Assembly (NCBI GenBank): GCA_036172245.1
Contig: JAYWIR010000005.1
Coordinates: forward strand, 3,410,001 to 3,474,000
Direction of reading: 5' to 3'
DNA: 64,000 nt
Origin: Raillietiella orientalis
Lineage: Eukaryota
Numbering within the stretch: the stretch's first letter is position 1; each line of letters starts with the position of its first letter. Under the pieces are notes generated by a model. That model ran no database searches. It was not told the origin of the DNA and was given only the letters and a program-made list of their open reading frames with translations. The translations under genes and the position numbers were made by a program. Shown here piece by piece: positions 15,361 to 51,633 of this stretch.

Positions 15361-15930
15361 TTTCCTGTCAACGCTCTAGCCAGGTGGAAGCGTGGAACAG
15401 GTTTACCTCAAAGCTCGTCCCGCGACATAGCAACTCAATGAAGCCTTCGAGCGCCCACGCCGGGATGCATCCGTGCAGCAGCAGCAGGAGGTCGTCGGCA
15501 CAGGCCCACACGGGAGGCGTGCCAAGACGCGAGCTCGCCAGAGTTACCAGAGTCTCCCTGTATGCTCTCAGCACCCAACTCAAAGGGGATGCTGAAGAGC
15601 AGGCGGGTCAGGCCGTCACCCTGCCTTTTGCCACGCCGAACAGGCGCACCGCACACGTGTTGGCTGCTGAAAGAGATATTCATGAGCGCGTGGCGCCAGC
15701 AAAAGCGCAGATAGGCCTGAAAGACTTCCGGAAATCCCATGCGTTCCAGGAGTTCCAGAAGAAATTCCCGATCGAAGCAGTGGAATGCTCTACGCAAATC
15801 GCCCACGACTGCCAGGGTTCCGGACGTGGCTCTACCTCCCTCCCTGGTCAGGGGAAACTCGAGGATCCTCTTGACCTTCGCGCTAATGGGGTAGTAATGG
15901 TGAGAATGGGTAATTAGTATGATTGGATAG

Positions 15931-15984
15931 CAAGAATCAGTTTGGGAGAATATTAATTTTGGGTATTAAAGGATTATTTCTTGA
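15931..15984 (+). tRNA. trnP: Mitochondrial-type tRNA-Pro(TGG) copy lacking the T-arm (NUMT, presumably non-functional)
   Basis: Acceptor CAAGAA/TTCTTG; D-arm GTTT-GGGA-GAAT; anticodon stem TTAAT/ATTAA with 7-nt loop TTTGGGT; 7-nt TV-replacement loop AGGATTA. Confidence 0.8.
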
Positions 15985-15999
15985 TGGTGTATTTGAATT

Positions 16000-16054
16000 C
16001 TCCTTTAATTTATTTTCGATTTACAAATCGATGTTTCAATTAGACTAGTAAGGC
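16000..16054 (-). tRNA. trnT: Degenerate mitochondrial-type tRNA-Thr(TGT) copy lacking the T-arm (NUMT)
   Basis: Minus strand GCCTTAC-TA-GTCTAATTGAAAC-A-TCGAT-TTGTAA-ATCGA-AAATAAATTAAAGGA. The anticodon loop is one base short and the acceptor stem is imperfect. It lies next to trnP on the opposite strand. Confidence 0.55.
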
Positions 16055-17125
16055 TGGGCTTAGAGGGGGTAGCGACTGCCACCATGGTTCGTGCAGGAAA
16101 GTCTCCTCCGGACTGTCCACGGATTCCGCCACCCGTCCAAGTCACTCAGCCCACAATTTGATAAGCAACTTCGCGTCCGCATTCGGCAGAGTGATGGACC
16201 ACCAGTTGCCTACGTTGCGTGAGTCTCCTCCTTTCGGGAGGAGAAACCATACCTTAGATGAGCGGGACGAGTTGGGAAGGTCGTCTCGTTCGCGGATCAG
16301 CATGCCAATTGTAGCACCAGGTGGACCAGCTCTGCCTGGAAGCACTGGTAAAACTCCGCGAGCAGCCTGTCCTCCCCCGATGCCTTTCGTTTTCTGAGCT
16401 TCCCGACGGCACAGATGATCTCCGCCATCGAGAAAGGCTCCTGCAGATGGTTCCTATCCTCATCCCTCAAAACTGGGAGCAATCGCTGTGCAAAGGCGCG
16501 CCCGGGTCTTGCTCTCGCGTAAAGTGAGGAGTAAAAAAACACGCAAGATGCGGCTCACCTGCTCTGAGGATGAGCATTCTCGGCCTTGGGCGTCCAGCAA
16601 GCTGGCCGACCCGCATTGTCAGGTCTGCCTTTCGGCCATAGCTCTGCCTTCCGGCATTCCTGGAGTAGAGACGCACCAGTAGGTAGGCCCTCTGGTTCTT
16701 CAATGCTTCGCCAAAACCCGGAAGAAGGCGGTTCAGAAAGAACTCTCGGACTGAGCTCTTCATTTCGTCCCAGTCCGGAAGCGTCCGCAGCTGGAATTCT
16801 CGCAGAAGCGCGCGGAGATGCTCCGCTGCTCCTGAGAGGCGCAACCAGTCTCCTGGCAGGCGCCATGTTTGAGAGGGTGGACCTCTTCCTCGCGGGTGTA
16901 TGTCGAGCACAAGTCGCGGATGGTCGGACAGCTCCGAGAAGAGTGTTCCACGATTTCCCAGCCGTGCGCGCACAAGTGGTCGTCCAGGAAAATGGGATGA
17001 ATGCTGTTCGCCGCCTCGGCATCTCCGGCCAACAAGTTGCGCGTGTGCATGGCTGCGCACATCTCGTTGACCAGGCGCGCTCGTATATCGCGCGCGTACC
17101 TGCCACCAGGCGGACATTCGAGTTT

Positions 17126-19140
17126 TTCATTCGGTCACTCCGGGGCGTTTATTTTCATAAACCAGTTGGGAAGGAAGGTTCGCAACCGCCGAATACAAGA
17201 TGCAAAGGGAAGGTTTCAGCGACACGCAGGCCGGGAAAACGAGATGTCGAGAACGGGTGAGGGAGAAGGGGACAAAAAAAGAGAAAAGTAATGAGACTGT
17301 GTTGGTTGTAGCAGGGATCTTGGGATTCGCTCCGCAGTCAAAGAAAGGAAAACACCGGGAAATCTGTGGAGCGATCAGGCACAGGGAATCAAGGAGAAAA
17401 AGAATTCAATGAACAAGGGAGGGCAAAGGGCTAGGATCACCGGGATCCACCGTTCCTACTTATTTGTAACCCGTCGCTCTATGCCGGCGATCTCCTCTTT
17501 CGTTTTCTCGTCAAGCTGATGCCAGCTTGCAGCTGCACCGACGTACGTGGCTGCCATCGCGGTGACATCCCTTCGCCGCCTGGAAGTCTCCACCACATTT
17601 CAGGATGAGACGAAGGCGCGTATGCAACCTATGGTTGCGATCACCGCGCCAGTCGTTTGTCCTCCGCAGCACATCTCATTGAACCTCCGCAGCACATCTC
17701 GAGCGGTGTCCTCCCGGTGCAGCAGTGCTGCTACCAGCCTCCGCCATCGTTCATGAAGGACGTCTAAAAGCGGGTGCGGGAACGATTCTGTCGACCCGCA
17801 CCTGCCACAGTTAGGGGAAACCATCCCACGGGAAACACGATGCCGTCGCTCGTTGCACTGGAAACCCCAGTGCACGAACGGCAGCACGTCCTGTCTCCAA
17901 CCAAATGGAAACACGGATGTGTAAGCACAGTTTGGCGGGACCGCTAACACTTCTGGGGCAATTTCTAACAGTTCACGCCACCGAACAAGTCGCGAACAAG
18001 CAGTTGTGCGCGGAGTAACAGCATCTGCCAACTGGCGCGTGTTCCAGCCAGCCACCCAGGATGTAGTGAAGGAAATCTCTCATCTCCCCAGTCTTCTCTT
18101 GCCCTGAGGACAGACAGCGCCGCGCTAAGGGGAGTGGCGCTATGCTGGACCACTTCGCCACGTCCCCGGCAATCAGGCGCGCCCTTCGCACGTCTGCCTC
18201 GGCCAGCCAATCTCGCCGCAGGCCTTCGGACAACGCAGTGCGTACAGCTTCAAAGCGAGAGCGACCCTCGGCGCTGCTTGCTTATTTACCGGGGCTGTTT
18301 CCCATGTTCGGGCTGCTCGCCTGCCTACGATTCTTCGCCTGAGTGGCGGTCTCGCGCAAATCCGGTGGCCAGGATCTTCCATTGCCTTGCTTGTCCGCTT
18401 TCGGAATGGGCGCTGCACACTGGCTGCCGCGTTTCCGTTCCAGGAAGCGGGAAACCGCGTCTTCCCGTACACCGTCCAGTGTGAATTCCGAGGCGGAACA
18501 CTTCAAGTCCTCCGTCGCACGCGTAAACATTCCTGTGTGAAGAGAAGCGCGCGCAGTTTCCATCCGCCACCGGGAAGGAGGGCGCACTTGGAAGCAGGAG
18601 GCACCGTTCCAGCTGGAGTCTTTCGGCTGCTCTTCCTGGTTGGCATCATGGCTGCCTTCCTCGTGCGGGATTCGCGTCCCGTGCAGTTTCATGTTCTGCC
18701 AATTCGTTTCCGTGCAGGTGGCTTCCTGGGCGGGATGCTCGCAGCGACGCGCATCTCTCGCAGTGCTCGTCACTTCCTGCACCTCTTCTGCACGAACCCG
18801 CATTTTTTCCGATGCTTTCCCTTTCGTACACACAGTGTTCGCCATGCTGCTACACGCGAGCTTTTCGTACCGTGACACGTGCCCTCACCTCCGCTTGCGG
18901 ATATGTAGCAGGAATCCGGATGCTGGCAGCAAAGAAAGCATTTGCAGGAAGCGTTCAGGGAACCGCGCAACCGCTCCCATGCGTGCGGAGGTCAGGCGTG
19001 TTTTCGACGGGGGCTGAACGAACGAAAATGCGATACGAAGGACGTGGGAGATGAGACAGGGGTCATCGCGTCCTGCAACCAAGCGACGTTCCGATCGGGC
19101 TGCTTCGGAGGACATTCCGGTTAGCTCCGTGAGCCTCTTA
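17126..19140 (-). mobile_element. L1/Tx1-like LINE 3' remnant (post-RT, zf-RVT, 3' UTR)
   Basis: WRQDVLPFVHWGFQCNERRHRVSRGMVSPNCGRCGSTESFPH (17600-18055); UTR ends AATAAACGCCCCGGAGTGACCG on the minus strand near 17130-17153. Confidence 0.8.
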
Positions 19141-20819
19141 GGGAGAAACGTGCCTTTCGAACCATCTTCGAAATCGTTTCAATCCCTCGGTGGTCGTGTT
19201 CCAGAATGTTGCATTGCGTCCTATCCTAGGTACAGGATGAAGAAAACGAATAGGTATGGAACACCTGTGAAGTGTCCATTTCAAAAAGAACATGGGAACA
19301 GTCGAGTGAGAATTTGAAATATGGAGTCGCATAAAGCAGGCAGTCGGTTGAAGGCCATGGAGTGTCGCGCCAGCAAACGCGGTGATGTTATGGAAAATTG
19401 AAGCAGCAAACATCCTCGTGAATGGGGACGGTAACGATCAAGGAAGTCGACGAAAAAGAAACATCTCTTTTGTAAAAAGGCAAACACGGACTTTTGTGAT
19501 TTCTTTGCAGCAATAGCTCCTAAGAAACCAATTGCGTAGAGGAGGGGCGCTGCTATGACGTGTGGTGCGGTTTTCTGAACAGAGCTTGAGTGAAAGCCGA
19601 ATCGTGGGTGAGCCCGGCACGGGGTGAAATATGAACAGAAGATGAAGGCGAGTTAGAAGCCTTCCGGGAAGGGAAATGCAGTGAATGGGAAATTTTCCGT
19701 ATTCTTGTGAAAAGGGTTCTTGGAAATCGATGCTCTCTTTACAATTCTTTCTTTCTCAGGCAACGTAGATACCCTGAAGAGTGTAAGTTGAGTGTGTCTC
19801 TTGCAGGCTAGGGAGAGGAGTGTGGATTGTGCTTAGGGAGAATGAAGGATGAATCATGGATGTGCATTGGTGAAGGAGGAATGGTTGGTGGATTCGTATT
19901 GCATTGATATCTTCACGTACATATAGGTTCTGTCAGTGAAGTTGTACGCAGTTGAAGTTTGGACAAGGACCACGGCTAATTTAAAAGTTTTGCTTGGGAA
20001 GGATGGAGATGAGCTTACTTTGGCTATTTGAGGGTGTAAGAATTTGGACACATATGCCAGGTAATGTGGACACATGCCACTGAATCTCATAGGGATACCC
20101 GGTGAATGATGGATGTTCAGGTTTCGAAAAGTAAACGGAGAGACATGAGGTCAGTGTTTTCCTTTTATAGGTATGTAGAATGGTAAGGGAGATCAATGTT
20201 GAATGCTTCAGCAAGTTTGCTTTGAAAGTGACAATGCTGGGATGCAAAAACGAAGAGCAGATCATGGGAATGCATATCGGCAGATTTGGATTGATTTTAG
20301 GTTATGATGAAAGCTAAGGCAATGATTGAAAGGTCATTGGAGAAGTCGACTTAGATAATGCCAATGGTTTTCGATGGTGATTTGATTCTGGTTACGAGTC
20401 TGCACAGAGGAAATTTGTGTAGGGAAAGCAAGTTTTGGGAGCTAAAGTTTTCATGGACGGATGATAACGGATGCAGTAAGATGGAATATCTGGTGGAGGG
20501 TGGAGGGATGGAACATGGACAGCGAAGAGGAGGTGGTGTTTACCATGAGTTTTCTGTTTCGTGGTCCGGTGTGGAGGCAGAGAAGTATGTCCAAAACGGG
20601 ATGCATGATTAGATGGCAGATGGCAAGTCTGGAAAAGAGAAGGACCTAAAGCCAACATGTGAGTACTATGTGTGGAATAGAATCAGTTACTTGATTGTCA
20701 AAGTGTCGGTGTTCCCACTCGACAAGGTTTGTTTCTTTGCAGTCATCTGTTTATGGTGCTCATTTAGGTTGTTGAAGTCAAAGGTTTCACTAGGATCGAG
20801 TTGAGTGAGCACAAATCTG

Positions 20820-22035
20820 TGCCGCATGCTGCAGAGCATTTTCGAAATAGAATTCCTCGTCTAGCTAAGGTGGTAAATTGTCGGATCCACAGAGAGGGCA
20901 TCGATCTGGATTCCAAGGAAGGGGCTAGCTCGTTAGTGCAATACGTCTTTCGACGCATTGACCATGCGATTCGTGCTGGGAAGTGGTACGAGAAGAAAAG
21001 CAATGGCGGTGATCCATTTCGTATTGTGAGTGGATTGAATAATTAGTGTCCGTGTTCCTGAATAGGGGATGCAGTTCTGGCGGCAACCGGGAACAACGAA
21101 GTGGAACGTTCGGAAGTGCCTTTCATCCTCCTGTGTGCAGTCTCTGAGAGCCAAAGTTGAACTGATTTTTGATTTCTGGTTGATTAATAGCGCTGCAAAG
21201 CAGAAGTCGAAATTCCGATCCATTCAGCGGATCATGCACAAGAGGAAAATCGCCTGCGCGTTCATCAAGGACAGCGTGGAAGCCTCGTTCCCCTTTGCGG
21301 CATTTGGGAACACGAGAACGTGGAAGGAAGAGCACGTCGTGATTCCTGTCCAACGAGTGCCAGTCCAACTTGGAAAGGGACAGACTGTTCGCTGGGATGC
21401 CAACTACAGTGATGCCAGAACCCACTGAACCCCATAACCTCACTCATCCAGCGCAAACAGTTGAGGGATGGGTGAACGATAGATTTCACTACGTCCGCGA
21501 GGAGAAATCCAAGTGCATGCGGCTCGAGCGAACAACGTTGATGTCTTCGTTCTGATCGAGCAGCTCTCGAAATGCAGGCAACGGAGATGGGAGCCTCCGG
21601 TGTGTATTTTGAATGGAGCGCAGGGAAAACCGGAATGTTTAGGGACGCTTCCTGCCTTGAACTCCGTCATGAATCCAAGGCTGAGGCGCTGACCCTTGTG
21701 TGCAGCTTCATCAGCATCGGGCAAGCTCCTATTCTTTCAAGGCCCCTCCGACAAAACGAAGGGCTGCTGAATGGGACTTTTCCCTGCAGGGCGTTTTGTC
21801 GTTACGCTAGAGGTTCGAAGATCTGTGCCAGAGGAGCCCTCATTTGAACTGCTTGACTCTTACAGCAGACATTTCGCTCGCAGAGGATGGAAGTGGTGGA
21901 CGTTCACAGAGGCAGGCAGTGCGCGTGTGCATACGTTTCGGATGCATGGAGGAGAGAATTTTTAGTAAAGGATCACGAAAATTTGCTGCTTTTCACTGAG
22001 GGAAGAAAAAAGTTACGGACGGTAAAGTATTCTAT
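20820..22035 (+). mobile_element. Putative Academ-like DNA transposon XPG/PIN-fold nuclease remnant
   Basis: Frameshifted motifs in the expected order: RANNVDVFVLI (cf. DTDVFVLL), AEALTLVCSFISIGQ/FFQG..DKTKGC (cf. ALPxFHAFTGCDxxSxFxGxGKK), FTEGRKKL. Heavily decayed. Confidence 0.35.
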
Positions 22036-22039
22036 ATGT

Positions 22040-22290
22040 AAGGTGGTTCGTTCCCAAACGTTCCCATGGGAGCCACAGGGCAACACAGTCCACGAGCAAG
22101 GGTGGGAAGGATTCGTGTTCCCCGCACTTGCGACCGTCTCCGGGCTCGCTTTCCCCAGCGTCCAGCGGTGTCGACGCGCGTTGCAGGGGAGACCCTAGCG
22201 CAACAGCAGAAGTGACGACTCCTGCCGCTCCAGGGGGAGGGCGCTGCACCACATGAGCACAAAGGGCTACTCCGGGCCTCCACTGGTTGT
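22040..22290 (-). mobile_element. Short LINE zf-RVT fragment
   Basis: RKCGEHESFPPLLVDCVALWLPW in ORF 22013-22342; not seen at the equivalent place in duplication copy 2. Confidence 0.6.
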
Positions 22291-22299
22291 CTTCGAAGG

Positions 22300-22880
22300 A
22301 AACCTTGGAAGGAACCTCTTCCTTGCTCCGATTTCCACGCACACAGAGGTGTTCTCAGACGGTGTTTTGCTCCATCTCAGACCTGAGGCCGAAAAAGGGG
22401 GCCGTCGTCGCAGTTCTTTCATTCAGCTTCTTCAACAAGCAACCGCTTAGGGAGTTACCGTCAACGACAGGACCGTCGAGCATTCTGGTATGATCACAGT
22501 CTGCGTAAATGGTGAGTGTACGTGCAAGCGGAAAAATATCGTACCCCCACCCCCTTCAAATGCACAGTTTCTTTATAATGATATATATACATGTCTCGCA
22601 CTGCAGTGTTTTTGCGCCGAGGTTTTAACCGGGCTCGTTTCCAATTTCCTTCACGTTTTCAATTGCCAAGTGGCGTGCCTTTGCCCTGAGAACACGACCG
22701 TTGACCGCATTTGGCGCAGATACGGCCACTGTCGCGTAGAATGCTGCATCCTGCTGCTGCAGGCTTGTTTACGTGCCTGACCATATGGTATGAGGCTTTG
22801 GCTGGCTCATCTCTTTCGCAGCACTGGACTGTCTCACTCTGATGAAGCTCTCTGCATTGACAGGCACTGCCCATTCTTTA
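22300..22880 (-). mobile_element. Possible pogo/Tigger-like transposase remnant (paralog ~49950-50560)
   Basis: The paralog ORF 50127-50489 reads LETGL...AVNGRVLRTKARHLAIE...WKRAS, similar to a CENP-B-type HTH, followed by MLDGPVVDGNSL. Weak. Confidence 0.3.
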
Positions 22881-23159
22881 CTACATGGAAGGGTGGAGGG
22901 TGTAACGTTCGCCGAGTTTTAGTGACGCAAACAGTAGAAAAACTGCCTCCAGATACACTTTAGTAGTTTGCACCTAGCCAGTCTCAACCTAAAACTTACG
23001 CTTCCCAGTAATGCGGTTTGGGGCCATCTTAGGGGTCAACCTTTGGTGCAACGAGCGAGCATCACTTTGGAGGACTCAGTCGTGATCAGGATCTCGAAAC
23101 CAAGGTCGAGGGACCACAAGCTACAGAAGGATGCTTCAGAAAACGAAATCGAAAATGCC

Positions 23160-24055
23160 TTTTTTTTCTAAAGCCTGCATAACGAATCACGGCAAGGCTT
23201 ATACTTAGTGCCCTAAATAAACAGTAAGAATCCTCGACTATCGATTCAATCGTACACACAATATAGCAAACCGCATGCACAACCCATGAATCCATTTCAT
23301 CATTCCCACTTCATTTCTAATTTGTGCGATTTGAGGCCACCGTTCGGATGTTGGTGAAATGATGAATAGTACAGTGAACTACGTTTACTGAGGCATACGT
23401 TCGGGCTGTCGATGTAGCACCAGTCAGATGCAGCATCTCGTGCTGAATATGTGGTTCCCATACGCACATAAACTCCTGTTCTTGAATTTACGAAACACAG
23501 GAGATCGGTTTTGCTGCCAAGTCACCTGATTCCAGATTCCTTCAGAATCACCATAATTTTTCATATTCGGAAAATCTTCCTCCTATCCGATATTTGTCGC
23601 AACAACATAATTATTCTACATATATAGTCTCCACCTATTTCAGAATTCAACACATTCGACTCTTTTCGATCAGAAAAAGTTTCCGTAAGTGGTTGCAAAG
23701 TTATCCTCACCCCGTACATACTCAAACAGACTCGACATTCCAGTCAGATTCCATAATCCAAGCAACGTACTCATCGTGAGCTTATGGAAATCGGTATCAT
23801 ACACAAAGCAACCGACATAATAACCTTCACTGCCAACAAGCCTCAGCTCTTGACGAACAGTAGAAGCACCCTCCGTGAAACCGAAATCCTTAAACCGAAT
23901 ACGCGCACCAGAACGCAACACCTTCCCAATCCAGGAGGAAGCACGTCCAAAATTGCCACGATCATTAACACGCCTCCTCATTGAATTACGCTTACGATGA
24001 TTACCAGGAGAATGCAATGCACGACGTCTACGACGCTGTTTACGTAAAGAAACAT
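23160..24055 (-). pseudogene. cap: Endogenous CRESS DNA virus capsid (Cap) gene remnant
   Basis: Arginine-rich N-terminus SLRKQRRRRRALHSPGNHRKRNSMRRRVN (ORF 23670-24104), then SSLFEYV; the paralog near 51240-51290 reads SSMFEYVKLYGVRI, like the circovirus-type FxxYxIxxVxI capsid motif. Possible C-terminus VIRYAGFRK near 23165. Divergently oriented from Rep. Confidence 0.65.
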
Positions 24056-24216
24056 TCCTAAGATCAGCACGATGAAGTGTACGTGTTGCAACAGGCATCC
24101 TCACACCGCAACCTCTTGTATCCTAATGCATTCCAAAATAAAGGGAACAAAGAGAATACGAACCCCCTGACCCTCACATTCCTCCAATTTGACACCGACT
24201 ACGCAAAAACCACTTG

Positions 24217-24252
24217 GAAAGTGCAGAGGGTGACCCTGACCTCGGCACTTTC
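24217..24252. other. Putative rolling-circle replication origin stem-loop of the CRESS virus
   Basis: GAAAGTGC-A-GAGG [GTGACCCTGA] CCTC-G-GCACTTTC: 12 of 13 stem positions pair, with a 10-nt loop. The minus-strand loop CAGGGTCAC matches 6/9 of CAGTATTAC. It lies between the cap and rep starts. Confidence 0.65.
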
Positions 24253-24296
24253 AAAACCGTATCAAACCAAAAACACCCGCACCAAAGAGTTGCAAC

Positions 24297-25178
24297 ATGC
24301 CGTACGCAAAGAGCACGCGGCGATGCTTCACCTCAAACAACTGGACAACCGCAGAAGAAACTCAGGAAAGGTCACTTCGAAAAGGAATGCACGCAATCCG
24401 CGGTGAAGAAGGAAGCTCAACAGCAACCCCGCACCTCCAGGGATGCCTCCAAACAGCAATACACTCCACGATACCTCAGCTAAAAGGAATCCAACGTTTC
24501 TCAAGAGCTCCCGTGCAAACCTCCAAACGCAATTCTCAACGCAAAAAGACCGCCATGCGAAAGGGGCCCACCGAGAAACGAAAAACCTCCTACTATACAA
24601 GATCAAGTACATCGATTACAAACACAAAGGAGCACAATGCATTTCAGATCTTCGCATACAGAAAAGAGGGAAAAAACAGAAAAAGCGTTTTGCGAAAACG
24701 AACCACAACCATTCGATAAACAGAATGGCTTCCACATCGACAGCATCAGACTCGGACAATCCTACTCCACAAGCAATCCAATGATCCTCAAAAGATGACA
24801 CGTACGGCGAAAAACCATACAAAGACCTCATGCAAAGAGAACCAGACCACCGAGGTACACATTGGTACACCGGCTACCAAGGTAACTGGGGAAAAACCAC
24901 AGAAGCTAAACATATCAAATGCTACGCACCGTACTTAACCAATCGCAAAAAGAGAGGCGCCGCCCACACGCGGAAGGGAGAGACACTCATCATGCTGGAC
25001 CTCCTCCCACGCACACCACATCAACTACGGAATTATAGAAGGCCGAAGAAACGGAATGCCGGGATCCACTAAACTATCAAGGTCACGTTGAATTGACCAT
25101 CCGCCTCGCTTCGTCATCTTCCTCAGCATGGACCCCAACCACGAGAAAATGTCAAGCGACCTCTGCGTCATCCCTTAA
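24297..25178 (+). pseudogene. rep: Endogenous CRESS DNA virus replication-associated protein (HUH endonuclease + SF3 helicase), full length but frameshifted
   Basis: RCR motif I RCFTSNN and motif II GEE...TPHLQG (ORF 24297-24719); motif III decayed. Helicase EPDHRGTHWYTGYQGNWGKTTEAKHI (Walker A), LIMLDLLPR (Walker B), then in shifted frames RNGMPGSTK and PPRFVIFLSMDPNHEKMSSDL ending at TAA 25176-25178. Confidence 0.88.
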
Positions 25179-42224: not shown

Positions 42225-45118
42225 ATCGGGGAGAAAGCGCTGTTTATGGGGATAGAGATGGATCGTAATGAACCTTAGTTCTTCCTGTTCTGACCCCTGC
42301 ATCGTCTTCACGATGCTCACAAGTTTTGCATTGGAGTTTCTCCGGTTCGGTCATTGTGATACACTCTCGAAAAAGATCGTTGTTCAGTGCATGGCATCCC
42401 TGCTGTTTTTGTTTCTTCCTTTGGCGTCGCACCGCGTCACTTTTGCGCGAACACTGCAGAGAATTGCCAGAGACGCGGCGGGGTCAGGGCACACGTCAGC
42501 AGAGGTGCCGTCTATTGGTTTTAGGGTCGCCTGCCGGAAGTTTCAGGATGGACAAGAGTCGATAGGAAAGATCACGGAAGGCCACGCAATGGAATATGAG
42601 ATGCGGGAAGGTTTCCCTTTCACCGCTCTCGGCACAACTGGTACAACTTGCAACCAAACACCCTACTCTCCTGTGGGGGAGGTGCGCTCTGCATAGCATT
42701 CCCCAATGCAGGGAGAATAGAAACGCCGTCTCTTGCCACTCCATTGAAAGTTTCCCGCTGTTGCAATATGCCGGGGTCGCTCCGCCTCCTCCGGTTGTGT
42801 TGCGAGCTGCTCGACCCAGGTGATGAGCTCTTTAGGGGCGACTCTCGTTCTCATAGCGTCCATAACCTTCCAAGTTTTCCACGCCTACATTCGTTTTTTC
42901 CTGTCTCCAATGAGGCAGGACACTTCCCACGATGCTCGTTCGTTTCTATCTCCAGCGTTTGAGAGGATCTGGGGGGATGAAGGGGGGCCAAGGCAATTTG
43001 CGTGGGTTGTTTATTATCCATTGCAGGGGCTATCCAGTGTGAGGTTCCTTGTCGGATGCAGGCGGATTCCGGTTCGCCCGAGCCGTCGATTTTTCCCCAT
43101 GCGCAACCTGACCTCCTGAAGCCAGACAGTACAGTTCGCGTGGAGGCAGTAGATTCACGTGTTGTTTTTCATGGGAGCAACCGTGTTTTGCAGCTGATGA
43201 CCGCAATATCTAAGGCTGCTCTCGTATGCAAGGTCGATCGAAGGCAATCCTTCGCTGCCTTTCGCTCGCGAGGGGTCTTGCGGGTTCGCACCGTGGCGTA
43301 GTGCGCAACTCCCCCGTAAAGGCGAGTTTTTGAAACTATAGCTGTCGTTGCATGTACCACAGAGTTAGGAGGCTCAATCCTTCGTCCCTGCATAAAAGGC
43401 ACAAGTCTTTGAACCGGATACCTGTCCTCGCTGTGCGCCACAGGGCTTTCCTCAGGAGATCCTCGATTTGCATTTTCGTTAAGGGTGGGGCGGGCAAACA
43501 AAAGTGATGAGCAATGGAGGGAGTTTGCTACCGTGTTCCACACCGCGTCTTGTTCCTGCAAGTGAAACGTGCCGTCGCGAACGGACCAATCGCCAACTCA
43601 ACCTTTCGAAGACAGTCGGACCAGGCTTCTGTTACGCACAAGTCCCCCGGCGGAACGCCAAGTTACTTCAGATACCTGCCCGTGAAGCTTCTCGAGCGGA
43701 TCCAGTCCGGCCATCCTGCCAACGCCGCACCGACTGCTACGATGGACGACTTCTCCCTGTTCACCTCGAGGCCCGTCCAGCTGCGTAGCAGCTCCAGGAA
43801 GTCTTGCCGGGGTGCACCCGGGGAGCAGGAGCAGGAGGTCGTCGGCATAGGCCGACAGGGCAAGCGTGCCGGGACGCGAGCTCTACAGAGTTACCAGAGT
43901 CTCCCTGTGTGCTCTCAGCGCCAACTGAAAGTAGACGCTGAAGATCAGGCGGCTCAGCCTGCAACCCTGCCTTATGCCATGCCGAACCGACGCGGCGCAC
44001 ACGTGTTGGCTGCTGAAACGAATATTCATGAGCGCGTGGCGCCAGCAAAATCGCAGATTGGCGCGAATGACAGCCGGAAATCCCATGCGTTTCAGGAGTT
44101 ACAGAGGAAGTTCCTGGTCGAAGCAGGGGAATGCTTTACGCAAAGCGCCCGCGGCTGCAAGGTCTCCTCCTCCTTGGCCTTCCCCTCCTTGGTCAAAGGA
44201 AACTCGGGATCCTCTTGACCTGTCTGACCTTCGCGCTATAGCATCTGCCACCATAGTTCGTGAGGGAACCGCGTAATTGGGGTCCGGACTGAACACACAT
44301 TCCGCCACCCGTCCTTGTCGCTCATCCCACAAATTGGCATGCAACTTCCCGTCCGCATTCAGAAGAGTGATGAGCCGCCAGTTGCCTACGTTGCGTAAGT
44401 CTCCTCCTTTCGGAAGGAGACGTACTCTACCCTACAGGGACGAGTTGGGAACGTCCCCTCGTTCGCGGATCAGCATGGCTAGTTTGAGCACCAGTGGGAC
44501 CAGCTCTGCCGCGAAGCACTGGTGAAACTCCGCGGGCAGACCGTCTATCTCTGGTGTCTTTCGTGTTTCCAGCTTTCCGATGGCGGAGATGATCTTCGCC
44601 ATCGAGGAAGGCTCCTGGAGGTGGTTCCTAATCTCATCCCTCAACGCTGAGGCGCCATCTGGCAGAAATCGCTGCGCAAAGGCGCGCTCGGCTCTTACTC
44701 TCGTGTGAAGTGAGGACTAAAAAAACACGCAAGATGCGATTTGCCTGCGCTGGGGCTAAGCATTCCCAGCCATCGGCGTCCTGAAACCTAGTCGACCCCG
44801 ATTGCTAGGTCTATCTTTCGGTCCCAGCTCTTGGTTATGCAAGTCGTCGGACGTCCATTGCTGGAGTAGAGACGGACCTGTTTGTGAGGGATTGAGAAAG
44901 CAGAGGTAGGCCCTCTGCTTCCTCAATCCCTCGCAAAATGCCGGAGGGAGACGATTCATAGGGAACTGGGCGGGAACTCTCGGACTGAGCTCTTCATTTC
45001 GTCCCAGTCAGAGAGATTCCGAAGTTGGAATTCTCGCTGAAGCGCGCGATGTTCCGCTGCTCCTGAACAACTCAAGCAGTCCCCTGAAAGGCGTCACGTT
45101 TCAGAGGGTGGACCTCTT
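42225..45118 (-). mobile_element. L1/Tx1-like LINE ORF2 remnant (linker, RT, zf-RVT)
   Basis: RKTPEIDGLPAEFHQCF, LLPKGGDLRNVGNWRLITLLNADGKL, ALRKAFPCFDQE, GIRQGCRLSRLIFS, GLEVNREKS...GRYLK, CTSCAESGERETFPHLIFHC. Confidence 0.9.
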
Positions 45119-47488
45119 CATTTTGTGATTTTTGTTGACTTTTGTGATTTCTTTCCAGCATTCGCCCCTAAGAAACCAATTGCGTTGAGACGGGGTGCCG
45201 CTATGACGTGTAGTGCGGTTTTCTGAACAGAGCTTGAGTGAAAGCCGAATCGTGAGTGAGCCCGGCACGGGGTGAAATATGAACAGAAGATGAAAGCGAG
45301 TTAGAAGCCTTCCGGGAAGGGAAATGCAGTGAATGGGAAATTTTTCGTATTCTTGTGAAAACGGTTCTTGGAAATCGATACTCTCTTTACAATTCTTTTC
45401 CAGGCAACTCACCAACGCAGATACCCTGAAGAGTGCAAGATAGGTGTTTGTCTTGCATGCGTAACAGGTCAAGGAGAGGGGTATGGATGGAGATTATGGA
45501 GAATGAAGGATGAATCATGGATGTGCAATGGTGAAGGAGACATGGTTGGTGGATTCGTATTGCATTGATATCTTCACGTACATACAGGTTCTGTCAGTGA
45601 AGTTGTACGCAGTTGAAGTTTGGACAAGGACCACGGCTAATTTAAAAGTTTTGCTTGGGAAGGATGGAGATGAGCTTACTTTGGCTATTTGAGGGTGCAA
45701 GAATTTGGACACATATGCCAGGTAATGTGGACACATGCCACTGAATCTCATAGGGATACCCGGTGATTGATGGATGTTCAGGTTTCGAAAAGTAAAAGGA
45801 GAGACATGAGGTCAGTGTTTTCCTTTTATAGGTATGTAGAATGGTAAGGGAGATCAATGTTGAATGCTTTAGCAAGTTTGCTTCGAAAGTGACAATGCTG
45901 GGATGCAAAAACGAAGAGCAGATCATGGGAATGCATATCGGCAGATTTGGATTGATTTTAGGTTATGATGAAAGCTAAGGCAATGATTGAAAGGTCATTG
46001 GAGAAGTCGACTTAGATAATGCCAATGGTTTTCGATGGTGATTTGATTCTGGTTACGAGTCTGCACAGAGGAAATTTGTGTAGGGAAAGCAAGTTTTGGG
46101 AGCTAAAGTTTTCATGGACGGATGATAACGGATGCAGTAAGATGGAATATCTGGTGGAGGGTGGAGGGATGGAACATGGACAGCGAAGAGGAGGTGGTGT
46201 TTACCATGAGTTTTCTGTTTCGTGGTCCGGTGTGGAGGCAGAGAAGTATGTCCAAAACGGGATGCATGATTAGATGGCAGATGGCAAGTCTGGAAAAGAG
46301 AAGGACCTAAAGCCAACATGTGGGTACTATGTGTGGAATAGAATCAGTTACTTGATTGTCAAAGTGTCGGTGTTCCCACTCGACAAGGTTTGTTTCTTAG
46401 CAGTCATCTGTTCATGGTAGTCATTTAGGTTGTTGAAGTCAAAGGTTTCACTAGGATCGAGGTGAGTGAGCACAAATCTGTGCCGCATGCCGCAGAGCGT
46501 TTTCGAAATAGAATTCCTCGTCTAGCTAAGGTGGTAGGTTGTCGGATCCACAGAGAGGGCATAGATCTGGATTCCAAGGAAGGGGCTAGCTCGTCTTTCG
46601 ACGCATTGACTATGCGATTCGTGCTAGGAAGTGGTACGAGAAGAAAAGCAATGGCGGTGATCCATTTCGTATTGTAAGTGGATTGAATAATCAGTGTCCG
46701 TCTTCCTGAATAGGGGATGCAGTTCCGGGGGTAACCGGGAACAACAACGTGGAACGTTCGAAAATAGCTTCCGTGCTTCTGTGTGCAGTCTCTGGGCGCT
46801 CAAGTTGAACTGCTCTTTGATTTCCAGATGATTAATAACGCTTCAAGGCGAAATTAGAAATTCCGATCCAAGGAACTATTCAGTGTATCATGCGCAGGAA
46901 GAAAATTGCCTGCGCGTTCATCAAGGACAGCGTGGAAGGTATCATAATTCCTGCAATTTCGCAACCAGTCCCAGTCGAACTCGGAAACGGATACACTGTT
47001 CGCTGGGATGCCAAAACCGATTGAACCCCATAAGCTCACGTACCAGCGGAAACAGTTGACAGACGGGTAGATTTCACTGCCTCCATGAGGAGAAATCCAA
47101 GTGCATGCAGCTCGACAACCCAGCGTTGACGTCTTCGTTCCGATCGAACAGCTCTCGAAATAGATAGGAGCCTGCGGTTTGTCTTTTGAATTTGGCGCAG
47201 GGAAAACCGGAATGTTGAAGGGAGCTTCCTGCCTCGAAATCCGTCATGAATCCAAGCCTGAGGCGCTGACCGTTGTGTGCAGCCTCATCAGCATCGGGCA
47301 AGCTTTTATTCCTTCAAGGCCCCTCCGACCAAACGAAAGGCTGCTCGCGATTCTTCCAAGGAAGCTGCGGACTATTCCCTGTAGAGTCCTTGTCGTTGCG
47401 CTGGAGGTTCAAAGACCTGGGCTAGGGGAGCCTTCATTTCAACTGCATATCTCTGACGACAGACGTTTCGATTGCACAGGATGGAAGT

Positions 47489-48987
47489 TTGTTACCCGGT
47501 CACGCCGGGACGTTTATTGTTATAAACTAGCTGGAAACGGTTGTTTCCATCCAACGACTACAAAAACCAACAACAGAGATGCACCTCTGGCACGCAGGCC
47601 ACGAAAACGGAAGGACCTGAACGAATGGGGGAGGAGGGGACTACAAACCAAAAGGAAAAGTCTAAATGGGAGGAATGGGCCAGGAAACTTTGGTGACTCT
47701 CCGAAGTCACCGTAAAAGATAAAAAGGAAAAGCACCAAAGGCACTACGGAGCAAATGGGAAGTGGGACGCAAGAACAAAAATAAAGTAAACAGGGGAATG
47801 GAGGAGGATCACCGGGTTCTTCGTTCCAAACCGTGTATCATACGGCGATAAATGCCAGCGAGCTCCTCCGTGGCGTATTCGTCCAGGTGTCGCCACCCAG
47901 CTGCCGCTCTGACGAAGTCGGCTGCCTTCCTGGCGACATAGCATCGCTGACCAGTATTCTCCAGCACATCTCGGACCGTGACGATGGCGCGGAAGCAACC
48001 AGCTGTGGATATCATCGCAGCCGTCGAAAGTCCTTGGGCTTGGAAGAAACGTCGCAGCACTTCTTGGGCGGTGTCCCTCGGTAGCAGGAGTGCTGCTGCC
48101 AACTTCCGCCAGAGTTCCTGGAGGGCACCGCAGTCGAAAACAAGGTGCGGAAACGACTCCGTCGCACCGCACCGGGCACAGCAGGGTGAAGCCACTCCAC
48201 CGGAAACTCGGTTGCGCCGTTCGTTGTAGCGCAAGCCCCAGTGCAAGAAGAGCAAGACGTCTTGCTTCCATGCAAGGGAAACACCGAGCCGTCCAAACAC
48301 CAGGGAGGGATAATAAGTTCCTCGGGGGAAACACCAAGAGTTTCTCCCCACCGAAGTAAGCCCTTTGGTGTAGCACGAGGAGTGGCGGCATCCGCAAGCT
48401 CGCTCGTGGCCCATGGGCCAAGTGGTTTCGTACTTCCTGCAATGGTGCAGGAGAACTCCCACCTTGCCGGATGGCTACTGTCTTCTCGAACCTCGAGGGC
48501 GGACAATGCTTCGGCAAGGGGCGTGGCGGCCAGGGAGGAAAACTTCACCTGGTCCTGCATCACATCTTGGAGTGACCAAGGTTGAAATTGACGCAGGGGG
48601 CGAAGATTTTGTGGCTCATTCCTAAGAGTGCAGCCAGGGAATCAATGGATTCCTGCCGCCATGCATTGTAGTTCATTGGGCGGTAGGAAATCCATGTATT
48701 TGCTTCCAACAAGGTGGTGAGCTGCCTCAAAGGATACCCAAATCCCTGTCTTCTGTGACGCATGCCTGGGAAAGAAGTGCTTCGCTGCCAGCACACCTCC
48801 GTAGGAGGTTGCGCGCGGGCGCACACAGGGGGGAAGTCCATAGCTCGGCACACAGTGCCAGCATCCGGAACCGCACTTGCATTCCGATCCGCTTCATCGT
48901 CAGGATGCCAAGACGGGCATCGCGACGTGGAGCCGTCAGGTCTTTCAGGCGGATCCTGGATCGCGCCGGATCCCAAAGAGCGTTTCT
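47489..48987 (-). mobile_element. 5'-truncated L1/Tx1-like LINE insertion with a candidate target-site duplication
   Basis: zf-RVT SPCCARCGATESFPHLVFDC (47809-48462). Flanks CACAGGATGGAAGT (47475-47488) and CAGAGGTGGAAGT (48988-49000) correspond to a single CAGAGGATGGAAGT at 21881-21894. Confidence 0.85.
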
Positions 48988-50814
48988 CAGAGGTGGAAGT
49001 AGTGGGCGTTCACATGAGCGGGAAGTGCGCGTTTACGCACTTTTCCAATGCATGCAGGAGCGACTTTTTCGTAAAGAGTCACGAAAATCTGCTGCTTTCA
49101 CTGATGGAAGAAAGCAGCAACGGACGTTAAAGTATTCTCTATGACAAATGCATGCCTCATGAGAAGGACGGTACAGCCATTGGAGCGAAGGAGATTCTTT
49201 GTTTTCAATGAGAGGTGCAGGTAGCTGAAACAAAATAACTTGTATGTCGTTTTCAGTGTTATCCTTTCAAACTGTCATATTTGAATGCGTCGGCGAGTGA
49301 TGGGCGATGTATGACATTTCTGAAGTGGTATCGCATATGGTAAGGACACCAAACATGCAATGCAGCGCAGCCAATTCTTACTTCAATTTGTACTTATTCT
49401 TACGATGGCTGTTGTGTTCCGTGTATGCGAGCTGAATTGTGTTTTTGCCCTTCGTCAAACCTTTTCCTGCTTGCTTAATCTTCTTTTTTTTATTTTTGGT
49501 AAGGTTTTCCTTGCCCTACCTCTTGCTTTCTCATTTTCTTATCTTCAGCTTGTCGAATGACGTCTTGATTTTCTCTTTGATAAGTTTTCCGCATGCGGTG
49601 ACCCCCATCTTGGTTTTCAGTCATCTTCTCAGAACTGCTGGCGTTTTCAAGATTGGATGCTGCATCTCGTCGGTTGTTTGCTCATTCGGACCACTGCAGG
49701 TGGTTTTCACGCTCGAGCTTTAAATACCCCGGAATTGTGCAGACATTCCGTGGATGGCTGCATTTGTTGCAGAGTGCAGTTGGACATGCATCCACTGTCT
49801 GTGTGAGATTGCTGCGTACAAGACAAAAGTGAAGACTGCTTCCTACGCATGACTGGAAAGTCGTGCGAGTAGGTCTCCAGTGGCGTGATGGGTAGTGGCA
49901 TATGGTTTGATCTTGACAAGCGCCTCACCCGAGGTGTTCCCGAGCAAGTATCCCGTTTGCTCCGATTTCCACGCAAGCAGAGGGTTTCTCGGACGGTGTT
50001 TTGGTCCATCTGACAGCTGAAGCGTAGAAGCGGGCCGTCGTCGCAGATCTTTCATTCATTTTCTTCAGCAGGCAACCGCTTAGGGAGTTACCGTCAACGA
50101 CAGGACCATCGAGCATTCTGGTATGATCACAGTCTGCTTAAATGGTGAGTGTACGTGCAAGCGGGAATATCCTTCCCAACCCCCTCCAAACACACAGTTT
50201 CTTCATAATGATACACGTACACGTCTCGCACTGCAGTGCTTTCGCGCCCCATTCGGGATAACTTCGGGCTTTTAACCGAGGCTCGTTTCCAATTTCTTTC
50301 ATTCACGTTCTCAATTGCTAGGTGACGTGCCTTTGTCCTCAGAACGCGACCGTTGACCGCATTTGGCGCAGCTACGGCCACCGTCGCGTAGAACGCTGTG
50401 TCCTGCTGCTGCAGGCCTGTTTCCAGGCCCAACCATATGGTATGAGGCTTTGGCTGGCTCATCTCTTTCGCAGCACTGGGCTGTCCCACTCTGCGCGTGC
50501 GTCTGATGAAGCCCTCTGCATTGAACAGGCACTGCCCATTCCTTACTACATGGAAGAGTAGAGGACGTAAAGTTCACCGAGTTTTAGTGCCGAAAACACT
50601 AGAAGAACCGCCCTCAAATACATTTTAGTAGTTTGCCAGTCTAAACCTAAATACTACGCTTCCCAGCAATGAGGTTTAAGACCATTGCAGCTGTCAGCCT
50701 TTGTGCAACGACCGAGCAATACTCTGGAGCACTCGGGCGTGATCGGCATCTCGAAACCAAGGTCCAGAGACCACATCCTACGAAAGGATGCTTCACAATA
50801 CGAGATCCGAAATG

Positions 50815-51633
50815 CCTTTTTTTTTCTAAAGCCTGCGTGACGAAGTCATGGCGAGGCTTATACTAAGTGCACGAAATTCACAGTAAGAATCCTCGACTAT
50901 GAATTCCATCGTATACTCAAAATAGTAAGCCGCGTACACAACCCATTTCTTCATTCCCACTCGTTTATAATTTGTGCCACCGTTCGGATGTTGGCTAAAT
51001 GATGAACAGTACAGTCAATTACGTCTACTGCGGCATACATTGTCGCTGTAGAACCAGTCAGATGCAGCATCTCGTGCTGAACGCGTGGATCACATACACA
51101 CATAACGTCCTGTTCTTTCATTTACAAAACACAGGTGATCAGTTTTTTTGCTGCCTAGTAAGCTGATTCCACATTCCTTGGGAATCCCCTTTTTTCATAT
51201 CCCCAAAGTCTTCCTCTACTCCGGGATTTGTCGCAGCAACATATCCTCACACCGTACAACTTTACATACTCAAACATACTCGAAATTGCAGTTTGTTTCC
51301 GCAATCCAAGCAACGTACTCACCGTGCGCTAATGCAAATCGGTATCATACACAAAGCAACCAACCTTCACAGCCGACAAGCCACAACTCTTGACTAACAG
51401 TATCAGCACCCTCCGTAAAAGCAAAATCGCTACACCTAATAGGCGCACCAGAACACAACACCTTCCCAATCCAAGAGGAAGCACGTCCCAAATTACCACC
51501 ATCATTAACGCCTCCTCATAGAATTTCCCTCACGGTAATCATCACGACAATGCAATACACGACGTCTACGACGAAGTTCACGTAAAGAAACATTTCTGAG
51601 AACAGCAAAAACCACTTGGATAGTGCGCAGGGT
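50815..51633 (-). pseudogene. cap: Second, partial CRESS virus copy: capsid remnant plus left arm of the origin
   Basis: Homologous to 23160-24231; SLRELRRRRRVLHCRDDYREGNSMRRR; SSMFEYVKLYGVRI. No rep follows. Confidence 0.65.

What the first reader, a model, noticed from the sequence alone, without database searches (positions are those of the whole stretch)
23160..25178. Near-complete ambisense CRESS DNA virus genome integrated in the host (cap <- ori -> rep)
Seen: a ~880-bp Rep with RCR motifs I and II, Walker A, Walker B and motif C in order; a divergently oriented ORF with an Arg-rich N-terminus and an FEYVKLYGVRI-type motif; and a stem-loop between them, about 2 kb in total. Established: this is the layout and size of circovirus/cyclovirus-like ssDNA genomes, and reported endogenous copies are often rep-only. 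Inference: a whole-genome fossil that ties a possibly unclassified CRESS lineage to this host. Frameshifts split it into short ORFs, so it is easy to miss.
Basis: partly seen in the sequence, partly recalled or inferred. Interest (0 to 1): 0.9.

Follow-up and report, generated by a model that had tools for sequence, protein, structure and literature searches.

The report
Decayed CRESS virus fossil, partly duplicated
A broken copy of a small circular single-stranded DNA virus (replication gene, replication origin and probably the coat gene) sits in this eukaryotic chromosome; such fossils are already known, but here a later duplication of the host DNA stops at the spot where the viral enzyme would cut.

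Summary
The Rep gene is real. A profile built from 83 uncultivated ~2-kb CRESS genomes hits only three collinear stretches of the window (24303-25172). They score 26.7, 18.6 and 9.6 bits; the best of the other pieces scores 4.0. tblastn reaches E 8e-9. The gene is dead: at least 2 frameshifts, 2 in-frame stops, and no catalytic Tyr.

The hairpin at 24214-24255 is one of only two of its quality in 64 kb. It has the geometry of the relatives' origins. Its loop holds a degenerate nonamer, matching 6 of 9 bases, on the strand opposite Rep.

The "capsid" ORF (24098-23670, minus strand) has an Arg-rich N-terminus and the right place and orientation. No homology or fold test supports it as a capsid.

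New here: the cap side plus about 8 kb of left flank is duplicated at 43759-51633, at 75-91% identity. This shows a real and old integration. The duplication ends between 24231 and 24232, which is the predicted Rep nick site. Rep has no second copy.

Whole-genome CRESS fossils are already published, so this is a new member of a known kind. The nick-site breakpoint is the interesting lead.

The parts
24297..24566 (+). Rep, N-terminal HUH (HUQ-type) endonuclease domain. Motif I CFTSNN 24324-24341; motif II HLQG 24432-24443; motif III position 24549-24563 lacks the Tyr.
   Evidence: Custom Rep profile, positions 25-111; the piece scores 26.7 bits, E 2e-7 among 1722 pieces; Pfam Viral_Rep E 0.02; tblastn with relatives.
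24638..24916 (+). Rep, linker and start of the SF3 helicase, read in another frame. In-frame stop at 24782-24784; Walker A GYQGNWGKT at 24872-24898.
   Evidence: Profile positions 77-168; the piece 24785-25069 scores 18.6 bits.
24986..25012 (+). Walker B-like LIMLDLLPR (the relatives have FDIPR). The second frameshift lies at about this place.
   Evidence: Translations; consensus of the relatives.
25008..25178 (+). Rep C-terminal part, back in the first frame. In-frame stop at 25089-25091; stretch aligned to motif C at 25110-25127; stop codon at 25176-25178.
   Evidence: Profile positions 208-262; 9.6 bits.
24214..24255 (-). Origin-like hairpin. Read on the minus strand, the loop is TCAGGGTCAC and its last nine bases (24238->24230) match CAGTATTAC at 6 of 9. 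The predicted nick lies between 24232 and 24231.
   Evidence: I6; sequence; 2 such hairpins in 64 kb; in 67 of 72 relatives the nonamer is on the strand opposite Rep and its last base abuts the 3' arm.
24099..24296 (.). Spacer between the divergent ORF starts. The palindrome GTTGCAAC stands at both ends (24085-24092 and 24289-24296).
   Evidence: D3.
23670..24098 (-). Putative capsid gene, first 142 codons, with an Arg-rich N-terminus.
   Evidence: Place, strand and base composition only; no homology found. ESM Atlas nearest clusters are viral hypothetical proteins, 0.92-0.93, which is only a lead.
23200..23669 (-). Putative remainder of the capsid gene, broken into short frames. The split FEYV / YGVRITLQP motif lies near 23700-23745. 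The left edge of the G-poor block is at about 23160-23200.
50800..51633 (-). Second, more broken copy of the cap side and of the left hairpin arm. The ORF 51155-51328 carries MFEYVKLYGVRI. This copy lacks the equivalent of 24070-24204. It ends with the same GGGT as copy A at 24231.
15401..24231 (.). Copy A of the segmental duplication. Its right edge falls in the hairpin loop.
43759..51633 (.). Copy B of the segmental duplication, in the same orientation.
51634..51857 (-). Fragment of a LINE reverse transcriptase (NWRPI...AFPGRR) that abuts copy B. It is only 67% identical to the LINEs inside the units.

Best explanation
The stretch from about 23200 to about 25200 is the decayed remnant of one roughly unit-length genome of an unclassified CRESS-DNA virus (Cressdnaviricota), fixed in a eukaryotic chromosome.

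Its layout is that of its nearest relatives. An origin hairpin lies in a spacer of about 200 nt. Rep reads rightwards from it. A gene with an Arg-rich start, most likely the capsid gene, reads leftwards on the strand that carries the nonamer. In the living virus, Rep would have cut the loop after base 7 of the nonamer, stayed bound to the 5' end, and primed rolling-circle replication.

The circle appears to have been opened between the 3' ends of the two genes when it was integrated. This step is inferred. The element no longer works: Rep has frameshifts and stops, lacks the catalytic Tyr, and has too few hydrophobic residues.

After integration, about 8-9 kb comprising the cap side and the host DNA to its left was duplicated 27 kb downstream.

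Shown: Rep homology, the hairpin, the duplication, and the decay.
Inferred: capsid identity, the opening point of the circle, and completeness.
For: REP
- A profile of 83 IMG/VR Reps gives 3 hits in six frames of the whole window. All lie in 24303-25172 and are collinear with the profile (positions 25-111, 77-168, 208-262).
- Among 1722 pieces, the Rep pieces score 26.7, 18.6 and 9.6 bits; the next best scores 4.0.
- tblastn with 220 ORFs from the relatives gave 201 of 1261 HSPs inside 24200-25250, best E 8e-9. The best hit clear of the region has E 0.013.
- The relatives are genuine CRESS genomes. All 4 Reps that I scanned against Pfam match Viral_Rep (E 3e-8 to 5e-17). One of their caps matches Circo_capsid at E 2e-20.

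ORIGIN
- A hairpin of this quality occurs at only 2 sites in 64 kb.
- In 67 of 72 relatives the nonamer is on the strand opposite Rep and its last base abuts the 3' arm.
- The window's loop has a 6-of-9 match in that same place and on that same strand.

LAYOUT
- In 69 of 72 relatives the longest non-Rep ORF is on the strand opposite Rep.
- The block size of about 2.0-2.1 kb compares with a median of 2137 nt in the relatives.

THE CAP SIDE IS FOREIGN DNA
- The left hairpin arm lies on the cap side.
- The stretch 23160-24069 is G-poor in both copies (0.16), while the adjoining flank is balanced (0.24).

INTEGRATION IS REAL AND OLD
- The cap side together with its flank occurs twice, at 84-91% identity.

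DECAY
-. The hydrophobic share is 22.2%, against 30.4-42.4% in the relatives.
Against: CAPSID. No test supports it.
- Pfam on pieces and on read-through frames of both copies: no capsid family.
- PDB sequence search: no capsid hit.
- IMG/VR and metagenome scans: none.
- The 5.8-billion-protein search: none.
- A profile of 5 circovirus-like caps from the same Rep lineage, and profiles of 4 cap clusters (45, 11, 9 and 4 members), do not rank cap-region pieces above background.
- hhalign probability 0.5%.
- The AlphaFold model is useless: pLDDT 44.

REP. It fails the standard thresholds.
- Pfam gives 15.6 bits against a cut-off of 26.
- phmmer against 1.84 billion proteins gave only one hit, a low-complexity acidic repeat protein.

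NONAMER. The match is weak on its own: 4 of the 7 fixed positions, about 7% by chance by my binomial estimate.

SPACER FOLD. The spacer as a whole folds no better than 16 of 200 shuffles.

COMPOSITION. The block (A .34, C .28, G .18, T .20) differs from the relatives (A .32, C .18, G .19, T .31) and is unexplained.

RIGHT JUNCTION. The junction near 25200-25400 has no independent support.
Confidence: 0.75

Rival explanations
1. Only Rep and the origin region are viral. The minus-strand ORF is not a capsid gene: it is some other viral ORF, or host or transposon sequence that happens to have an Arg-rich reading.
For: All capsid tests were blank. The duplicated unit contains this ORF but not Rep. 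Arg-rich readings are common in the GC-rich parts of this window.
Against: The left hairpin arm, 14 of 16 complementary to the Rep-side arm, lies on this side and is also present in copy B. So viral DNA extends left of the loop. The G-poor composition continues to about 23200 in both copies and then changes. Place, strand and total size fit the relatives. CRESS capsids are often unalignable between lineages (PMC7493932, passage read).
Confidence: 0.17
2. Sub-question of the duplication edge. The end of copy B in the hairpin loop has nothing to do with Rep. It reflects breakage at a hairpin-forming inverted repeat by host processes, or plain chance.
For: There is only one junction. Within about 3 nt on either side, its position cannot be told apart from microhomology or mutation. 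The 7 bases on the far side of the junction in B do not resemble the first 7 of a nonamer, so a Rep joining reaction is not indicated. Copy B also carries an unrelated 135-nt deletion close by.
Against: A random edge within the roughly 2-kb element would fall within 3 nt of the predicted nick less than 1% of the time (my estimate). A 16-bp imperfect stem is a poor cruciform former; this point is general knowledge and was not tested.
Confidence: 0.6
3. The viral sequence is a contaminant or an assembly chimera, not chromosomal DNA.
For: No reads could be laid; no sequencing run was listed (reported under Tried and rejected). The Rep-side junction has no second witness.
Against: The gene is full of stops and frameshifts. 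The cap side and its host flank occur twice in the contig and have diverged by 9-16%. Rep is joined to that duplicated part through a hairpin whose two arms pair across the boundary.
Confidence: 0.03
4. The Rep belongs to a Helitron or a plasmid-type rolling-circle element, not to a CRESS virus.
For: All of these are HUH enzymes.
Against: The only Pfam family seen is Viral_Rep. The helicase follows the endonuclease with SF3-type motifs shared with about 2-kb viral genomes that carry capsid genes. No Helitron-sized ORF is present.
Confidence: 0.02

Closest known systems
Uncultivated 1.9-2.8-kb IMG/VR CRESS genomes L001-L083 (unclassified; Walker A G-N-x-G-K-S, FDIPR, NTKYET)
   Same: The Rep is collinear over the endonuclease and the helicase. 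It shares the HLQ motif, GN.GK[ST]...PR after Walker B, and the C-terminal ...S.D... stretch. The capsid gene is on the opposite strand (69 of 72). The nonamer hairpin is on the strand opposite Rep, next to the Rep start (67 of 72).
   Different: Identity is only about 30-45% in the aligned stretches. At 122 conserved columns, 41 are the same. None of their capsid groups matches the window. Their genomes are AT-rich without strand skew.
Whole-genome CRESS fossils: Naryaviridae/Nenyaviridae/Vilyaviridae elements in Entamoeba and Giardia (PMC7493932) and krikovirus (Draupnirviridae) elements in snakes, lizards, turtles and insects (PMC10193959)
   Same: Rep and Cap lie side by side in host DNA, with many stop codons and of ancient age. 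They are used to tie a virus lineage to a host.
   Different: Membership of any of these families was not tested, because no labelled reference sequences were at hand. In those studies the Cap was recognisable by homology; here it is not. In the passages I read I saw no duplication edge at the origin, but I did not read the whole texts or the supplements.
Endogenous geminiviral elements that keep the v-ori hairpin (Nicotiana GRD, yam EGV1; PMC5014472, passages read)
   Same: A degenerate rep together with an intergenic fragment carrying the origin hairpin, in repeated copies in the host genome.
   Different: Those are plant elements with an intact TAATATTAC, arranged in tandem arrays of viral units. 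Here there is a degenerate nonamer, and a dispersed duplication that carries host flank.
Endogenous circoviral elements of vertebrates (PMC6372831; only the highlights in the search listing were seen)
   Same: Decayed Rep-derived fossils, sometimes duplicated.
   Different: Most of those are rep-only and belong to Circoviridae. Here the Rep is nearer to an unclassified lineage, and the origin and a probable second gene are retained.

Membership tests
CRESS-DNA virus Rep (HUH endonuclease + SF3 helicase) | Motif I (FTxNN) | tested here: met
   CFTSNN at 24324-24341, aligned to the relatives' fftlnny.
CRESS-DNA virus Rep (HUH endonuclease + SF3 helicase) | Motif II (HUH/HUQ) | tested here: met
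   TPHLQG at 24426-24443.
CRESS-DNA virus Rep (HUH endonuclease + SF3 helicase) | Motif III (catalytic YxxK) | tested here: not met
   At the aligned position the Tyr is replaced, while the Lys is kept. This fits decay of a dead copy.
CRESS-DNA virus Rep (HUH endonuclease + SF3 helicase) | Walker A, Walker B and motif C, in that order after the endonuclease | tested here: met
   GYQGNWGKT, LIMLDLLPR and FVIFLS are collinear with the profile. Motif C and the Arg finger are degenerate.
CRESS-DNA virus Rep (HUH endonuclease + SF3 helicase) | Curated Pfam thresholds (PF02407, PF00910) | tested here: not met
   PF02407 gives 15.6 bits against a cut-off of 26. PF00910 gives no hit. In the two of the four scanned intact relatives where PF00910 appears at all, it stays below its cut-off at 18 bits.
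CRESS-DNA virus origin of replication | Stem-loop with NANTATTAC in the loop, next to the Rep start | tested here: inconclusive
   The stem-loop is present. The nonamer matches CAGTATTAC at only 6 of 9, though in the place and on the strand used by 67 of 72 relatives.
   No hit for either copy. A profile of 5 circovirus-like caps gave no hit either.
   No labelled reference set was available. Indirectly, the one relative tested (L049) matches the PDB chains 2hwt/6h8o better than PCV2-type chains.
Whole-genome endogenous viral element | Both Rep and Cap recognisable | tested here: inconclusive
   Rep is recognisable. Cap is supported by position, strand, Arg-rich start and composition only.
Whole-genome endogenous viral element | Host-virus junctions verified | tested here: inconclusive
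   The left junction is present in two diverged paralogous copies. The right junction has no second witness. Reads were not obtainable.

The most novel reading that the evidence does not exclude
While a working Rep was still around, either from this element when it was young or from a superinfecting relative, it nicked the integrated origin in the chromosome. That nick set the edge of an 8-9-kb duplication.

Copy B starts, on the nonamer-bearing strand, with the two bases that follow the canonical cut (24231, 24230). It then runs through the hairpin arm, the spacer, the cap side and about 8 kb of host DNA.

This is what two routes would produce: a strand displaced from a Rep nick, or a repair synthesis that copied this strand as template and ran off at its Rep-bound 5' end. 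In either case the product would then be joined to a LINE by end-joining.

If so, it would be a natural case of a viral rolling-circle nickase remodelling host chromosomal DNA around an endogenous origin.
Probability: 0.3. Interest if true: 0.75.

Novelty: new member of a known kind. Interest (0 to 1): 0.45.

Why it matters
The fossil ties a so-far unclassified CRESS lineage, known to me only from uncultivated ~2-kb genomes, to a eukaryotic host. The diverged duplicate gives it a minimum relative age.

Fossils that keep the origin as well as the genes allow a test of how such viruses enter and later disturb chromosomes. The match between a duplication edge and the predicted Rep cut, on the correct strand, is a testable hint. 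It suggests that an integrated origin can remain a target of Rep and can seed host rearrangements.

Tried and rejected
REP SEARCHES THAT FOUND NOTHING USEFUL
- phmmer of the Rep piece against 1.84 billion proteins gave only a spurious acidic-repeat hit.
- The word-based search of 5.8 billion proteins found nothing for the Rep piece. It found nothing for the 148-aa ORF 50130-50573 in the flank. It found nothing for the cap ORF.
- Metagenome scans for cap and Rep found no relatives.

CAPSID
- AlphaFold on the cap ORF gave pLDDT 44, so no fold search was run.

READS
- Sequencing runs: none was listed for 22800-25700, and no RNA holder was listed. No reads were therefore laid.

GENOME AND EARLIER NOTES
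- No whole genome is held for this window.
- Earlier scan notes held nothing.

IDEAS REJECTED
- The cap side is LINE coding sequence. Rejected: no protein-level similarity to the LINEs of the window and no RVT hit.
- Copy B is an empty site and the virus begins at 24232. Rejected: the left arm pairs with the right arm and is present in B.
- Copy B is an insertion into a LINE whose two halves flank it. Rejected: the LINE at 51634 is only 67% identical to the LINE at the left of the unit, whereas 43759-44221 is 80% identical to copy A.
- A second Rep lies left of the cap, as in a concatemer. Rejected: no trace was found.
- The A/C-rich, T-poor composition is one-directional hypermutation (T>C, the complement of ADAR-like A>G). 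Not supported: at 81 differing conserved columns no single direction dominates (A>C 10, G>C 9, A>G 7, G>A 5, T>C 4), and copies A and B share the composition.

HOST
- A host guess from the LINE ORF via the ESM Atlas was uninformative.
Full report
SETTING

The window is eukaryotic DNA rich in repeats. It holds an ankyrin-repeat gene at 2888-5495 (minus strand), LINE reverse-transcriptase and zf-RVT fragments, and two long tandem arrays. No whole genome is held for it.

REP

The plus strand from 24297 reads MPYAKSTRRCFTSNN...GEEGSSTATPHLQG.

Standard libraries barely see it.
- Of 16 ORF pieces scanned against Pfam, one matched Viral_Rep, at E 0.02 and 15.6 bits. The cut-off is 26 bits. The match covers profile positions 2-75 of 82.
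- Of 6 read-through frames (stops read as X), one gave Viral_Rep at E 0.12. None gave RNA_helicase.
- The PDB sequence search gave one weak hit, a Rep endonuclease domain (7kii, E 0.41).
- phmmer against 1.84 billion proteins gave one hit under 0.001. It is an acidic repeat protein of 2064 aa, which I take as spurious.

The case rests on relatives fetched from IMG/VR. One locus shared PHLQGCLQ. Two further scans then gave 83 loci, most of them 1.9-2.8 kb, of one Rep lineage.

- A profile of their 83 Reps, run without filters over the six frames of the whole window (127,996 residues), reported three domains and no others:
  - profile 25-111 at 24303-24566;
  - profile 77-168 at 24638-24916, in another frame;
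  - profile 208-262 at 25008-25172, back in the first frame.
- Run over 1722 stop-to-stop pieces, the three Rep pieces score 26.7, 18.6 and 9.6 bits. The fourth-best piece scores 4.0.
- tblastn with 220 ORFs of the relatives gave 1261 HSPs at E up to 10. Of these, 201 lie inside 24200-25250, best E 8e-9. The best hit clear of the region is 0.013.

The alignment shows several shared stretches:
- motif I and motif II;
- EPDHRGTHWYTGYQGNWGKT against the relatives' epdDRkvyWfweekGniGKs;
- a Walker B ending in PR;
- a C-terminal stretch, INYGIIEGRRNG...PRFVIFLSMDPNHEKMSSD, against vSYsalEsiKnG...phiivfaNfpPdeekLseD.

The relatives are bona fide CRESS genomes. All four Reps scanned against Pfam match Viral_Rep, at E 3e-8 to 5e-17. 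One of their caps matches Circo_capsid at E 2e-20. RNA_helicase appears in only two of those four Reps, at about 18 bits and below its cut-off. This explains the blank for the window. The best solved-structure match of one relative (L049) is 2hwt/6h8o at E 1e-6, ahead of PCV2-type chains at about 2e-4. That 2hwt is a nanovirus Rep is recalled, not given by the call. I therefore do not file the element under Circoviridae.

REP IS DEAD

- It has at least two frame changes.
- It has in-frame stops at 24782-24784 and 25089-25091.
- The Tyr of motif III is absent.
- F+L+I+V+M+W+Y+C make up 22.2% of the 236 aligned codons, against 30.4-42.4% (mean 35.9%) in the relatives.
- At 122 conserved columns, 41 are unchanged.

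ORIGIN

- Between the two ORF starts lies a hairpin: arms 24214-24229 and 24240-24255, 14 of 16 paired, loop of 10 nt.
- Hairpins of that quality occur at 2 distinct sites in the 64 kb.
- The 198-nt spacer as a whole folds no better than 16 of 200 shuffles.
- The loop holds no canonical nonamer.
- In the relatives, 72 of 86 loci carry NANTATTAC in a hairpin loop.
- In 67 of 72 loci of up to 2.8 kb, it stands on the strand opposite Rep with its last base abutting the 3' arm.
- Read that way, the window's loop is TCAGGGTCAC followed by CCTC... Its last nine bases match CAGTATTAC, one of the relatives' nonamers, at 6 of 9.
- On the 7 fixed positions this is 4 of 7, about 7% by chance by my estimate. 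The sequence match is weak; the geometry and strand are right.
- Rep enzymes cut after the seventh base and stay bound to the new 5' end (PMC7826260, passages read). Here that cut falls between 24232 and 24231.

THE SUPPOSED CAPSID GENE

The ORF 24098-23670 (minus strand) starts with an Arg-rich stretch.

Nothing identifies it as a capsid.
- Pfam on pieces and read-through frames of both copies: nothing.
- PDB: nothing.
- IMG/VR: nothing. Metagenomes: nothing.
- The 5.8-billion-protein search: nothing.
- hhalign against three circovirus-like caps of the same Rep lineage: probability 0.5%.
- A profile of five such caps: nothing.
- Profiles of four capsid clusters (45, 11, 9 and 4 of 73 caps): nothing.
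- A single-sequence AlphaFold model: pLDDT 44.
- The ESM Atlas puts it nearest to clusters of viral hypothetical proteins (0.92-0.93, one of them mostly Cressdnaviricota). Its recognition value is low. I count this as a lead only.

What speaks for a capsid gene is indirect.
- In 69 of 72 relatives, the longest non-Rep ORF is on the strand opposite Rep.
- The left hairpin arm lies on this side, so viral DNA continues left of the loop.
- G content is 0.16 over 23160-24069 in both copies, against 0.24 in the adjoining flank. This puts the left edge near 23160-23200 and the whole block at about 2.0-2.1 kb, against a median of 2137 nt in the relatives.
- The motif F-E-Y-V-K-L-Y-G-V-R-I(-T-L-Q-P) has the pattern and length of a conserved capsid strand. 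It is seen in the relatives L009 and L010 as YKFYRCARIQLEFVP and YQFYRIKNITVRVKP. L010 is Circo_capsid.

That motif is intact only in the second copy.

THE DUPLICATION (NEW)

Self-comparison shows that about 15401-24231 (copy A) recurs at about 43759-51633 (copy B), in the same orientation, with insertions and deletions. MAFFT identities are:
- 91% for 19489-21894;
- 86.5% for 22323-23160;
- 84% for the cap side.

Two blocks at the left end are lower by blastn: 74.7% for 16070-16888 and 80.4% for 15401-15877.

Hence the cap side and its left junction with host DNA predate an old duplication. This is the best evidence here that the integration is real and ancient. Rep has no second copy at DNA or protein level.

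Copy B lacks the equivalent of 24070-24204. It then matches 24203-24231 at 26 of 29, through the left hairpin arm and two loop bases, and ends there. A reads ...GGGT|GACC and B reads ...GGGT|CTTC. Beyond the break, B continues with a LINE reverse-transcriptase fragment on the minus strand. That fragment is only 67% identical to the LINEs inside the units.

The break therefore falls between 24231 and 24232. Allowing for chance matches and mutations, it could lie a few bases to either side. This is the predicted Rep cut, and the nicked strand is the right one. On the nonamer-bearing strand, copy B begins with the two bases that follow the cut.

Two readings remain open.
- A Rep nick at the integrated origin, giving either a displaced strand or run-off of repair synthesis at the Rep-bound 5' end, followed by end-joining.
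- Breakage at a hairpin-forming repeat, or chance.

The seven bases on the far side of the junction in B do not resemble a nonamer half. I therefore see no sign of a Rep-catalysed joining. The left edge of the duplication lies inside LINE copies and cannot be resolved. I give the Rep-nick reading about 0.3.

COMPOSITION (UNEXPLAINED)

On the plus strand the block is A .34, C .28, G .18, T .20. The relatives are A .32, C .18, G .19, T .31 on the Rep strand. CpG is not depleted inside 23200-25200 but is depleted from about 25400 to 28400.

A one-directional mutation process is not supported. No single direction dominates at 81 differing conserved columns. Both copies share the composition.

COMPARISON WITH WHAT IS KNOWN

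- Whole CRESS genomes integrated with both genes are published for Entamoeba and Giardia (PMC7493932, passages read).
- They are also published for krikoviruses in snakes, lizards, turtles and insects. There, 17 of 36 Cap elements were paired with Rep, and the elements carry many stops (PMC10193959, passages read).
- Plant geminiviral fossils keep the origin hairpin (PMC5014472, passages read).
- Vertebrate circoviral fossils are mostly rep-only (PMC6372831, highlights in the search listing only).

My literature searches, and the passages I read, showed no report of a host duplication ending at the nick site of an endogenous origin. I read no paper in full, and the supplements were not opened.

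VERDICT

This is a real, old and dead CRESS-virus fossil with Rep and origin, and probably the capsid gene. It is a new member of a known kind. The nick-site edge of the duplication is the part worth following.

Noticed in passing
window 33753-41817: A tandem array of 19.1 copies of a 423-nt unit, 94% alike. Each unit holds an open 140-aa frame (MRDVRYRTFRGGW...).
   Followed up: no
window 28535-32600: A second array of longer units, with copies 92-96% alike. A 131-aa open frame recurs at 29492, 30780, 31424 and 32067, minus strand.
   Followed up: no
window 1-2953 and 60986-63915: The two ends of the window are 97.8% identical over 2.95 kb. This is a much younger duplication than the A/B pair.
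   Followed up: no
window 2888-5495 (minus strand): Exons of an ankyrin-repeat protein (Ank_2, E 3e-41). The piece 2888-3550 gives a weak PRANC-domain match: E 0.0026, 18.5 bits, below the cut-off.
   Followed up: no
window 44887-44931: The only other hairpin of comparable quality in the window: 15 of 16 paired, loop 9-13 nt. It lies inside copy B of the duplicated unit.
   Followed up: no
window 24085-24092 and 24289-24296: The palindrome GTTGCAAC stands at both ORF starts, 204 nt apart: just before the Rep ATG, and within codons 3-5 of the minus-strand ORF. Both ORFs begin ATGCC.
   Followed up: no
window 27600-28400: A stretch as A/C-rich and T-poor on the plus strand as the Rep region (A .35-.53, T .08-.17). 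It holds a 184-aa low-complexity open frame and has no Pfam match.
   Followed up: partly
window 50130-50573 (minus strand): A 148-aa open frame in the flank shared by both copies, just beyond the cap side. It has no Pfam family and no relative in the 5.8-billion-protein search. It is broken in copy A.
   Followed up: partly
window 25195-25216: A short inverted repeat (AATGCCA ... TGGCATT) lies just after the Rep stop codon. I read it by eye.
   Followed up: no
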